Shown: positions 21,321 through 36,608, numbered from the stretch's first letter. The stretch: 64,000 bases of DNA from Lingula anatina (GCA_051362555.1 CM120640.1:15562001-15626000), one strand, 5' to 3'. The notes: generated by a model not told the origin, from the sequence alone. Program-made: numbers and translations.

Positions 21321-21459
21321 ATGAAAGACTGGAAAGACGACTACGATCTATCGATGCACAGAAGAAATAACGTGTGGATGCACGACTGTCACGAGTCCTA
21401 CAGAGATCATGACGACATCATAGGAAGGGCAATTGGAAGTGCTTCGGAATTCATTCCAG
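21321..21459 (+). CDS. CDC14A: Cdc14 alternative first coding exon 1a
   Basis: [46 protein letters not shown]+G|GTATGC; ending homologous to exon 1b ([11 protein letters not shown]); phase 1 fits exon 2 at 23752. Confidence 0.75.
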
Positions 21460-23564
21460 GTATGCCCGACATCAGATTTACCTTATGAATTACTTATGTG
21501 AGGTTGTATAAACGGTACAACGTGACAAAATATCAATACTTTGAAACAATTTACATTTGTTGAAACCGTGTTGAAAGACTCCTAAGATAAATATTTTATT
21601 TATCGGTTAAAAATCCTGAGATTGAAGTACATATTTTATTTTTAATCGAGTATGATTATGGCAAAGAACAATCTTCAAAGCGCGGAAATATATAACATCA
21701 ATACAATACGCTACAACACAGGCAAACCCAAGATTTTGCTGTAAATTAATTTTTCTTCACTTAATGTAGAACAGCAATAGAGAACGGTCTACGGGGAAAG
21801 TTTTAAATATGTAGGGCACATAGATCGGTTATGCTTAGTTTCGTCGGAAGGGTTGAAGTTATTGTAGGGGATGCCTCCGAGGCTGACGGGAGGTAGTAAT
21901 GATGATGGTGGGAGAGTGTGTGTGTGTGTGGAGGGGAGGGGGGTGCTGGCATTGTCCAAGTGTGTTCATTCAACCTTGCTTCCACTTTTTTTAGACTTTT
22001 TTAAGCCAAAATTGTTTATTCGGCTATTTATTCAGCTTCCCCTTCCATGATATCATTTACTTCCAGCAATGATGCATTTAGGTAATTTTGAATGAAGATT
22101 GTTACGTGGCCGTCCAATATTACAATTTCCGAAAATACACAGATGATTTCTGAAGCAATACGCGGTTCTATGTGAGAAGAAGTGCACACGCACACATACA
22201 CTAACAGAATGGTCACAATCGCAATAGCTGTTGCGAAACAATCAATCACCGCTACCACAATGAAGAGAGTCGAGTATCGTTTTTGCAAAGAAGGCAGTGA
22301 TTTCGTCTACTAAGATTCATTCCAGGAAATAATGCCAGTCTTGCGGTATATGAGATACTTCTGTTAGTGATTCGTATAGGCGTTGTTGGTGACTTAGCCC
22401 TACTCTCCTCTTTTTTTTTTCTACCACACATCAGTCATAGGTACAGGAAGCAGGTCACTAGCCCCGTCGCTAACTTTTAGCCTCCCTCCCCCGGCCCCTT
22501 GAGCTTACAATTTGGATGTTTACGTTATATGTGTGTTTTTTAATTTATATCATTTTATTTCAACATTAAGAAGCGTAGATTTATTGGTTTTAATCCCCCT
22601 CCTCCCCATCAGTGCAAAGTAATGGTGGGCGGGTTTACATATTTAATTATCCAGACATTAACGATATATGTACAAAAAATTGAATATCCATTTTCCTAAA
22701 ACGCTATAATAAAATAATAATAATAAAAACGTTTTGAATGATACAATAACAAAAACCTACACATAATTCCAATTTCTCCCCAAAATGCCAAAAGTAAGTG
22801 TTCGCTCTGCTGAAATCAATCGAAAATTGGTTCGAAAATGTTTGATTGATGGTTGAAACAGTAATAAGCAGTTTTTAAATGCGTTAATTTTAATTTATAA
22901 CTCCTTATATACACTCCTTTTTAATTAATCACAAAGATTTGCAATTACACCGTCTAGGCTTACATCCACGAATTTTTATTCAACAGAGCTATGTGAACGA
23001 AGCGGGTACATCTGAAGGTCTCCTATAGGCCCTAACTCCTTTGGTGAACGAAATTGTCCCCAGATTTTGAGTTTCAGCAAAGAATGGTAATATATCTTAT
23101 CTGTTTTCCTCCACCTACAACATTGAGCACATGGTTTGTGTATTGAACATCATGTTTACATTAGCCATGTGAGTAAAATAGGCGTTTCATTGGCCTATTC
23201 CCTTTGTCGTCATAACAACGATTGTTGCACCCTAACCCATTGGTTCACCCCTAACCACGTGACAGCACTACCCTAACCTTCGAATTCGTTCAAACATGGC
23301 CGTTCATCGCGAGTGAGTAGGGATAACTTAATCGGCCGTGGAGAGTTCGTTTAGAGGCAAAGGGGCTGGTCCTCTATTTTTAACACCAAGGATGCATAGT
23401 CTGAACGGATGATACTGAAACATCGATCTGTCCTCCTTTAGATCTAGCAGACTATTGCGTTTTTTAAACGGGTCACGTAAACATACAAATCTGGGTCAAC
23501 ACTGAGTGATCCTTGGTTACTGTTAAAGTTAGGATAGAAGGGATACGGATACCTAACATCTTTC

Positions 23565-35500: not shown

Positions 35501-36608
35501 AAACATAGTGCTATTGTAATGAATTTGAAACACCATAATTGAAATAGAAATACATTTTGACAAACGATTAAAAAAAGTCTTTCAAAAGAATAAACACTAA
35601 CAATGATAAAAGAGAAAAGACACAAAAATTGACTTTGGCTCAATGAAGACTTTGTTTGGGAAATCATGATTTACAGAAAACAAGTAAAACATTCAAGGTT
35701 TGCTCTCTTAAAAAAACTTTCATTTCTGTCCTGTTGCACATCTTTTTTAACACTTTAACATTATCTATTTTTTTCTCTGTAGCATTGTCTTGTTCTTGGG
35801 TGCATGTGTAGCTGGGTTATCTATTCTGTCAGTATACATTAGTGCGCATGAGTGAGATTGTTACCTGTGTAAAGGAGAATGTACAGGTATGTGTCTTTGA
35901 ATGGGGACATTTTGAAATTTGATACCTTAACAATAATTCTAACCCAAAACTCTTCCATTTGTCTCCTTTTCTCAACAGCACTTCTCGGCTTGCATCAGAA
36001 TATGCCTCTGATTACCTAAGTTCTAAGGCAAGGGATCTAAATGGTCGAGAACCATATTACACCAGATCGAGTGATATCTATAAAAGTACTGGAGATCATT
36101 CAAACTCATCTGCAAGTTCTGCATTGAAAAATTATAGGTCTAATTATTCCACAGTAAGTGATTCTTGTGTTGTGTAGGCAAGCTGGTGTGAAAGTGTGCA
36201 ATGTAGTTGAGAATGAAATAAAATACTGGTTTTGGATTTTGATGGGGTTTTACCTTTGTTAGACAATGTTATTAATGGCCTGTCTGCTTTCAAAATGTGC
36301 ATCACAGTTAACCATGATAATGCTTCTGCAACTGCTTGGATGGTAAGGAGCCACCTAAATTTACTCCTAGACATAATGGGGTGCTAACCATTACTGCAAC
36401 ATACATACTGTTAAGAAATTGTGGTTCTTGCTTGTCTGATGTGAACTTGAGTGTGTACTGTAAACAGTTGATTTTAGGACGCAAGTTAACAGGCCTTTTC
36501 TAATCAAACTGTAGTCTTTTAAAGATATTATGTATATATTTTTTATTCTTCTCTTTCAGTCGCTCAGGTCATCATACTCGTCTTACTAGAGCCTCTGTAC
36601 TGAGATGA
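23565..36608 (+). CDS. CDC14A: Cdc14 dual-specificity phosphatase; exons 23565(or 23589)-23637, 23752-23842, 24291-24366, 25247-25339, 26572-26651, 30224-30290, 30623-30685, [31524-31611 or 31903-31990], 32665-32895, 33327-33465, 33848-34055, 34359-34471, 34784-34990, [35783-35886], [35979-36153], 36560-36589/36608
   Basis: [46 protein letters not shown](K/R)VENGD, catalytic HCKAGLGRTG split across exons 9/10, [19 protein letters not shown]; all junctions GT-AG and in phase. Probably co-orthologous to CDC14A and CDC14B. Confidence 0.96.
31524..31611 (+). CDS. CDC14A: Cdc14 mutually exclusive exon 8a (88 nt)
   Basis: [37 protein letters not shown]+G|GTAGGA. Confidence 0.85.
31903..31990 (+). 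CDS. CDC14A: Cdc14 mutually exclusive exon 8b (88 nt)
   Basis: [36 protein letters not shown]+G|GTAGGA. Confidence 0.85.
35783..35886 (+). CDS. CDC14A: Putative Cdc14 cassette exon encoding a hydrophobic C-terminal anchor (stop 35853-35855)
   Basis: Acceptor TTTTTTTCTCTGTAG, donor CAG|GTATGT; after the phase-2 exon 13 it reads [24 protein letters not shown]. Confidence 0.6.

What the first reader, a model, noticed from the sequence alone, without database searches (positions are those of the whole stretch)
21321..36608. One Cdc14 gene with a combinatorial isoform system (2 starts x 2 core exons x 3 C-termini)
Seen: three independent, frame-consistent alternative modules in one gene. These are homologous first exons (21321, 23565), duplicated 88-nt core exons (31524, 31903) and three ways to end (35783 cassette, 35979 cassette, or direct splice to 36560). 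Known: vertebrates have separate CDC14A and CDC14B paralogs with different localisations and tails. Inference: up to 12 proteins, with A-like, B-like and membrane-anchored forms made by splicing of one gene, which may reflect the pre-duplication state.
Basis: partly seen in the sequence, partly recalled or inferred. Interest (0 to 1): 0.88.

Follow-up and report, generated by a model that had tools for sequence, protein, structure and literature searches.

The report
Ancient swappable exons in Cdc14 phosphatase
A lamp-shell gene for the cell-cycle phosphatase Cdc14 is spliced in two ways that read its last exon in two frames, and it carries an old pair of likely either/or core exons also found in molluscs, but the proposed membrane-anchored form found no support.

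Summary
The gene is Cdc14 of the brachiopod Lingula anatina. All named exons have intact splice sites, but the modules differ in support.

(1) Ends: RNA reads confirm exon 13→16 (158 reads) and 13→15→16 (about 10). The two paths read exon 16 in two frames. The same two-frame ending fits 15 of 15 chosen isoform pairs, from molluscs to vertebrate CDC14A.

(2) Core exons 8a/8b: both or neither breaks the frame. Matching isoform pairs occur in 10 of 22 mollusc groups, and tandem copies in 5 of 58 fetched loci. Not tested on Lingula RNA; not seen in deuterostomes.

(3) First exon 1a is a real duplicate of 1b; its use is untested and no relative shows it.

(4) Hydrophobic exon 14 has no listed splice junction in four runs and no homologue.

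So 4 isoforms are well supported, 8 plausible, 12 not. Only the tail switch looks older than the CDC14A/B duplication, and CDC14A kept both frames. Known kinds of splicing; I found no paper on these in Cdc14, and the scan had not noted this on other DNA.

The parts
21321..21459 (+). Exon 1a, duplicated upstream first coding exon (46 aa); use untested
   Evidence: Phase-1 GT donor; best non-self match to 1b in the window; inside the CpG-rich domain 18501-24000; no counterpart in listed isoforms of relatives
23565..23637 (+). Exon 1b, conserved first coding exon (second ATG at 23589 matches the start of most relatives)
   Evidence: Starts RefSeq model XP_013396592; relatives' N-termini
23752..30685 (+). 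Constant exons 2-7 (23752-23842, 24291-24366, 25247-25339, 26572-26651, 30224-30290, 30623-30685): DSPn domain and most of the linker
31524..31611 (+). Exon 8a, K-type copy (K1, F7, C19, A23)
   Evidence: Used in both Lingula RefSeq models; K-type in molluscs
31903..31990 (+). Exon 8b, R-type copy (R1, L7, C19, P23); likely mutually exclusive with 8a
   Evidence: Intact borders; both or neither frameshifts; R-type isoforms in 10 mollusc groups; same order of tandem copies in 5 other loci
32665..33465 (+). Exons 9 (32665-32895) and 10 (33327-33465): catalytic domain, HCX5R motif split across their junction
33848..34990 (+). Exons 11 (33848-34055), 12 (34359-34471, with the QGD-L--LK helix matching the vertebrate SLiCE motif) and 13 (34784-34990)
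   Evidence: motif positions Q395/L399/K403 from PMC11407943 passages; the end of exon 13 is seen in RNA loose ends
35783..35886 (+). Candidate exon 14: 23 hydrophobic codons then a stop; not shown to be spliced
   Evidence: KD19 2.45; no junction listed in 4 runs; no homologue
35979..36153 (+). Exon 15, 175-nt frame-shifting cassette; minor path
   Evidence: 13→15 loose ends 6+4 reads, 15→16 joints 2+4+0+2 reads; in both RefSeq models; similar to the nemertean cassette, E 8e-7
36560..36608 (+). Coding part of last exon 16, read in two frames: stop at 36589 after exon 15 (Tyr-ending tail), stop at 36608 after direct splice from 13 (basic tail ending VLR); major path is direct
   Evidence: RNA; cross-species codon test

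Best explanation
This Lingula Cdc14 gene is spliced with or without a 175-nt cassette, which switches its last exon between two reading frames and so between two predicted protein tails; it likely also picks one of two old duplicate core exons and may use a second, duplicated first exon, while the hydrophobic cassette is probably not a regular exon. Shown: both tail splice paths exist in RNA, the direct one at about 94% of listed reads. Inferred: exon 8a or 8b is chosen singly because both or neither shifts the frame into an early stop, which nonsense-mediated decay would remove. The pair arose in a lophotrochozoan ancestor and was later partly homogenised in Lingula. The swap (K/R, F/L, A/P; in molluscs also C/S) sits at the end of the interdomain linker and the start of the catalytic domain, outside the proline pocket, so it would tune rather than switch activity. 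The tails would set localisation, as C-terminal splice variants of human CDC14B do.
For: Tail paths: with 13→16 at 71/61/13/13 reads, 13→15 at 6 and 4 reads, and 15→16 at 2/4/0/2 joints plus 3 loose ends. Two-frame ending: 15 of 15 chosen pairs are codon-compatible over 8-12 codons with the same +1 shift as Lingula; shuffle means 0.7-3.3. Exon 8: both or neither truncates at 199-244 aa. In 10 mollusc pairs the flanks (60 aa up, 100 aa down) are identical, position 1 is K in 10/10 versus R in 10/10, position 7 is F 10/10 versus L 9/10, and position 19 is C 10/10 versus S 10/10. Five fetched loci hold two 88-nt AG..GT copies with the K/F/C copy first. Lingula's copies are 78/88 identical against 55-68/88 elsewhere, while their flanking introns are no more alike than shuffles (p 0.27 and 0.74). 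Position in the fold: linker 157-179 and pocket residues F48, A132, A280, L282, I317 (PMC12796106 passages); exon 8 is about 174-202 by my count. Tail-dependent localisation: PMC2422853 passages.
Against: Exon 8b and exon 1a were not tested on Lingula RNA, and neither RefSeq model uses them. 12 of 22 mollusc groups with two or more listed isoforms showed one exon-8 type only, as did both nemerteans (9/9 and 7/7 R-type) and all deuterostome groups; the lists are partial (15 of up to 52 members). Lingula 8b is closer in DNA to other animals' first copies (12-23 differences) than to their second copies (25-31), which also fits an independent re-duplication. The 88-column tree is unresolved (p-AU 0.37) and the longest identical run is not significant (p 0.27). 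Relatives' isoforms are automatic gene models, and the two-frame test used pairs I picked and protein sequence, not DNA. One loose-end row was not shown, and only about 6-25% of each run was read.
Confidence: 0.75

Rival explanations
1. One reading: all three modules are used and combine freely, giving 12 proteins including a tail-anchored membrane form through exon 14, perhaps only in a tissue not sampled.
For: Exon 14 has a good acceptor and donor and is the most hydrophobic of 16 strong-tract intronic acceptors in this frame. Its stop lies about 31 nt before its donor, so 14→16 would escape decay. Vertebrate CDC14B has a conserved hydrophobic tail exon (10 of 120 rows, plus coelacanth, mouse and primates).
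Against: No junction listed in 4 runs against 168 listed reads leaving exon 13, and the low depth over it runs across its borders. 0 of 210 named invertebrate proteins reach KD19 1.8 near the end (top 1.59). The CDC14B hydrophobic exon branches one exon earlier. 4 of those 16 acceptors give KD19 of 1.5 or more.
Confidence: 0.15
2. Lingula 8b is a recent, lineage-specific re-duplication of 8a (used or not) that converged on R1 and L7, rather than the old second exon homogenised by gene conversion.
For: Only 5 of 26 same-residue codons differ between the copies, against 9-13 of 17-23 in other loci; 8b has C19 like first copies and is nearer to them in DNA.
Against: Same position, order, length and the same two diagnostic residues as mollusc second copies; no intron similarity beyond about 13 nt, which a recent segment duplication should leave.
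Confidence: 0.2
3. Exon 1a is a decaying duplicate that is not used, leaving one start.
For: No listed isoform of any relative has a second first exon of this type; it carries an in-frame 4-residue insertion in the conserved motif.
Against: Open frame from an ATG with A at -3, same donor phase, several silent differences in the shared motif, and it lies in the CpG-rich promoter-like domain.
Confidence: 0.35

Closest known systems
Vertebrate CDC14A (mouse structure 9rib; RefSeq isoforms of Megalops, Podarcis, Lepidothrix)
   Same: Closest solved relative (E 3.5e-124). A long cassette followed by a last exon whose two annotated tails are codon-compatible in the same +1 shift. 30 of 66 vertebrate rows end in the Tyr-type tail and 3 of 66 in the other frame; 7 of 9 Megalops members use the other frame. 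C-terminal splicing of CDC14A is known (six RefSeq isoforms; PMC12796106 passages).
   Different: One exon-8 type only in the rows seen; no duplicated first exon of the Lingula kind seen.
Vertebrate CDC14B and its 3' splice variants (Rosso et al. 2008, PMC2422853)
   Same: Alternative C-termini that set localisation (passages). 79 of 120 rows end in VLR/VLC/VLH, most of them directly after the exon-13 equivalent, like Lingula's major tail.
   Different: Basic N-terminal extension absent in Lingula. The hydrophobic tail exon branches after the exon-12 equivalent, not after exon 13. The long cassette was seen only in coelacanth and axolotl rows.
Tandem duplicated exon substitutions (mutually exclusive homologous exons; PMC9741552, PMC8373072)
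   Same: Equal-length homologous neighbours, old and conserved; a protostome-wide example lost before chordates is described for a calcium channel (passage).
   Different: The term cdc14 does not occur in the main text of either paper. The Lingula copies are unusually alike.
Non-triplet splicing that gives alternative C-termini or dual-coding last exons (PMC13247117; bioRxiv 10.64898/2026.02.24.707805)
   Same: A frame-shifting cassette chooses the frame of the last exon (passages).
   Different: Only 10 codons overlap, below the 60-nt dual-coding threshold of PMC13247117; apparent conservation from brachiopod to vertebrates; cdc14 is not in either main text.

Membership tests
Cdc14 phosphatase | N-terminal DSPn domain followed by a catalytic DSP domain | tested here: met
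   Exons 2-4 each pass the DSPn cut-off; P0002 passes DSPc and DSPn; PDB hits are all Cdc14
Cdc14 phosphatase | Intact HCX5R motif and general-acid Asp | tested here: met
   Spliced translation and alignment to 1ohc and 9rib
Cdc14 phosphatase | Phosphatase activity on pSer-Pro-X-Lys/Arg sites | not testable with these tools
   Needs an assay
Mutually exclusive tandem duplicated exons | Adjacent homologous exons of equal length and phase with intact splice sites | tested here: met
Mutually exclusive tandem duplicated exons | Both or neither is unproductive | tested here: met
   Truncation at 222/244 aa or 199/221 aa
Mutually exclusive tandem duplicated exons | Both forms conserved in relatives | tested here: met
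   10 of 22 mollusc groups; 5 of 58 loci
Mutually exclusive tandem duplicated exons | Each exon found alone in this species' transcripts | not tested
   8a is in both RefSeq models; no reads were laid on this region
Mutually exclusive tandem duplicated exons | Enforcing RNA structure or steric limit | tested here: inconclusive
   Intron of 291 nt; fold z-score 0.36; long-range pairing not computed
Frame-switching cassette with two-frame last exon | Both junctions in RNA and two stops in the last exon | tested here: met
Tail-anchored membrane protein isoform | One hydrophobic segment at the extreme C-terminus | tested here: met
   KD19 2.45
Tail-anchored membrane protein isoform | The exon is spliced into mRNA | tested here: not met
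   No junction listed in 4 of 9 listed runs laid; threshold 3 reads from 2 starts; one row hidden
Alternative first exon | Own start site and junction to exon 2 | not tested
   Sequence signs only

The most novel reading that the evidence does not exclude
The bilaterian ancestor already made two Cdc14 tails from one overlapping last exon, a switch still working in vertebrate CDC14A (an overlooked short isoform with a CDC14B-like end). Lophotrochozoans added an either/or exon beside the substrate-binding linker that gives two tissue-specific enzymes, and Lingula added a second promoter and a rare tail-anchored form convergent with CDC14B, so that one gene covers what vertebrates do with paralogues.
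Probability: 0.2. Interest if true: 0.7.

Novelty: new member of a known kind. Interest (0 to 1): 0.45.

Why it matters
Whether CDC14A and CDC14B are redundant or distinct is open (PMC6078348 passage), and the CDC14A tail matters for hearing (PMC12796106 passages). A two-frame last exon kept from brachiopods to fish and lizards points to ten to fifteen tail residues under long selection, and to a short CDC14A isoform with a B-like end that could be tested directly. The exon-8 pair gives natural enzyme variants that differ at three positions in Lingula (6-11 in molluscs) next to the linker, ready for a substrate-preference assay. The mechanisms themselves are ordinary, and relatives' isoforms already sit in automatic annotations.

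Tried and rejected
No RNA holder was listed by index; runs came by species label, and 4 of 9 were laid, on 35090-36720 only. The first exons and the exon-8 pair therefore remain untested on reads. No whole genome was available, so copy number of the gene was not checked; the two RefSeq models lie on different contigs and look like partial or mis-assembled versions of this gene.

Extra conserved exons: tblastn of 241 proteins against the window found none beyond the model. RNA structure enforcing exclusivity: a local fold was no better than shuffles; a long-range duplex scan was not completed. Gene-conversion tests: run length p 0.27, tree unresolved. 8a = CDC14B-like and 8b = CDC14A-like: rejected, the residues are mosaic. 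Exon 14 as orthologue of the CDC14B hydrophobic exon: rejected by position. A sigma-70 scan is irrelevant to an animal and found nothing.

Paper searches with no description of these Cdc14 exons, judged from the listings; some searches gave context or nothing. The library lacks most subscription papers, and supplementary gene lists of PMC9741552, PMC8373072, PMC13247117 and the bioRxiv preprint were not seen and could list CDC14. Earlier scan notes: nothing by sequence or relatives, none with all words.

Full report
Identity. The translation of exon 13 is 100% identical in two RefSeq proteins of Lingula anatina, XP_013396592 and XP_013406750, so the window is from this brachiopod or a very close relative. 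Pfam and PDB searches make the gene a Cdc14 phosphatase with DSPn and catalytic domains and an intact active site. I built an 18-exon model; all internal borders are AG..GT and all 12 proposed paths translate without an early stop. Both RefSeq models are partial or mis-joined; both use exon 8a and the 15→16 ending, and one starts with exon 1b.

Endings, tested on RNA. Four of nine listed runs were laid on 35090-36720, reading about 6, 6, 6 and 25% of each. Reads carrying the end of exon 13 enter exon 16 directly in all four runs (71, 61, 13, 13). They enter exon 15 in two runs (6, 4), and the 15→16 joint has 2, 4, 0 and 2 reads plus 3 loose ends. So the direct path is 158 of 168 listed exits from exon 13. 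Exon 15 is 175 nt, so the two paths read exon 16 in different frames: a short Tyr-ending tail (stop at 36589) or a basic tail ending VLR (stop at 36608). For candidate exon 14 no joint or loose end is listed. Depth over it is about 1-3; in X1 and X3 it continues through the next intron, and in X7 the two border bins (1.96 and 2.56 of 3) are higher than reads confined to the exon would give (about 1.2 and 1.5, my arithmetic). That looks like unspliced RNA. Limits: rows need 3 reads from 2 starts, one row was not shown, and the tissues are unknown.

Age of the tail switch. Annotated isoforms of molluscs, nemerteans, amphioxus, a hemichordate and a brittle star show the same two kinds of tail. 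For 15 pairs that I chose because both tails were listed, the Tyr-type tail with its stop can be coded by the same DNA as the basic tail over 8-12 codons, always with Lingula's +1 shift; 60 shuffles per pair averaged 0.7-3.3 codons, with maxima of 4-10. Two of the pairs are vertebrate CDC14A. Among 66 vertebrate rows, 30 end in the Tyr-type tail and 3 in the other frame. Among 120 CDC14B rows, 79 end in VLR, VLC or VLH. Coelacanth and axolotl CDC14B still carry the long cassette. Inference: the switch predates the A/B duplication; A kept both frames, and amniote B appears to have kept the direct frame only. This is protein-level evidence from automatic models, not a DNA alignment.

Core exon pair. 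8a and 8b are 88 nt, differ at 10 bases and 3 residues, and are 291 nt apart; including both or neither truncates the protein before the active site. In 10 of 22 mollusc groups with two or more listed isoforms, two isoforms differ in this exon with identical flanks. Position 1 is K versus R in 10/10, position 7 F versus L in 9/10 and position 19 C versus S in 10/10. Lingula 8a/8b match the first two contrasts but both have C19. Of 58 metagenome loci fetched with exon 9, 5 hold two 88-nt copies in tandem, with the K/F/C copy first in 5/5 and a copy with S19 second in 5/5 (R1 in 4/5); 46 gave one copy and 7 none, many being short or spliced. Two of the five match the annelid Owenia best, a weak taxon hint. 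Both nemerteans, the rotifer, three amphioxus groups, three hemichordates, the brittle star and the vertebrate clusters show a single type. So the pair is old among lophotrochozoans (the brachiopod-mollusc split is Cambrian or earlier; recalled), patchy, and not seen in deuterostomes. It does not map on A versus B: CDC14B rows are R/F/S in 67, K/F/S in 24 and K/L/C in 20 of 120.

Lingula's copies are unusually alike: 78/88 against 55-68/88 in the other loci, with 5 silent differences in 26 shared codons. Their flanking introns are unrelated beyond about 13 nt. Exon-limited gene conversion that spared R1 and L7 fits best, but two direct tests were uninformative and re-duplication remains possible. 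By my count, exon 8 spans about residues 174-202 of mouse CDC14A: the end of the linker (157-179) and what follows, outside the proline pocket (PMC12796106, passages). An acidic groove favouring basic residues near +3 is described in PMC11407943 (passages). That the linker's Glu and Asp residues form it is recalled from Gray et al. 2003, which I did not see. A tuning of substrate preference is therefore a guess. No special RNA fold was found; frame plus nonsense-mediated decay is the simplest enforcement (inferred).

First exons. 1a is the best non-self match to 1b in the whole window, with an in-frame 4-residue insertion and the same donor phase. Both lie in a CpG-rich domain (observed/expected 0.68-1.18 over 18501-24000, mostly under 0.5 in the gene body). 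No listed isoform of a relative has such a second first exon. It is probably a lineage-specific second start; its use is untested.

Membrane form. Exon 14's frame is strongly hydrophobic (KD19 2.45), the highest of 16 strong intronic acceptors, but 11 of 332 intronic YAG sites reach 1.8. None of 210 named invertebrate proteins has such a tail. Vertebrate CDC14B does have a conserved hydrophobic tail, from coelacanth to primates, but it branches one exon earlier. With the RNA blank, I put regular use of exon 14 at about 15%.

Literature seen. Passages of PMC2422853, PMC11407943, PMC12796106, PMC6078348, PMC9741552, PMC13247117 and bioRxiv 10.64898/2026.02.24.707805; a term search without hits in PMC8373072; otherwise search listings. 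No listing or 79 described an either/or exon or a two-frame last exon in Cdc14; supplements were not seen.

Verdict. Real, conserved alternative splicing of known kinds: 4 isoforms well supported, 8 plausible, 12 unsupported. The most useful result is the apparently bilaterian-wide two-frame tail, shown in RNA here. Interest 0.45.

Noticed in passing
window 34991-35309: Sense-strand depth of 3-7 in run X3 only, just downstream of exon 13. Read-through of the exon-13 donor stops at once; hemichordate models end the same way. A possible fourth, shortest ending, or pre-mRNA.
   Followed up: partly
window 36217: AATAAA 64 nt downstream of the exon-15 donor: a possible alternative polyadenylation site making exon 15 terminal; depth there is about 1 or less.
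   Followed up: no
window 31502-31517 and 23821-23836: The 8a acceptor region matches a 16-nt stretch near the end of exon 2 at 15 of 16 bases (seen by eye), and one RefSeq model reads this intron as coding. Probably chance.
   Followed up: no
L004, L005, L012 and window, acceptor of the first exon-8 copy: 4 of 6 first copies are preceded by TTACAG, some with a weak pyrimidine tract; a possible conserved splicing signal.
   Followed up: no
window 36609-36702: Several alleles in the start of the 3' UTR, including a G insertion right after the second stop in about a third of reads of three runs; run X7 is a more divergent animal.
   Followed up: no
P0471, P0505: Coelacanth and axolotl CDC14B keep the long CDC14A-like cassette, not seen in the amniote CDC14B rows.
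   Followed up: partly
window 49423-50754 and 62620-63957 (+): Two near-identical long exons with an IgGFc-binding domain, a recent tandem duplication; an EB-like module at 52762-53388.
   Followed up: partly
window 1623-1997 (-), 10465-11073 (+), 39787-40539 (-): Neighbours: an NDUFS5-like exon, a PQ-loop (cystinosin-like, label recalled) gene, and an Alg9-family mannosyltransferase (PIGB-like, label recalled) converging on Cdc14.
   Followed up: partly
window 55756-56735 (-): Two ORFs without a Pfam hit that look like an F-box/leucine-rich protein by eye (recalled).
   Followed up: no
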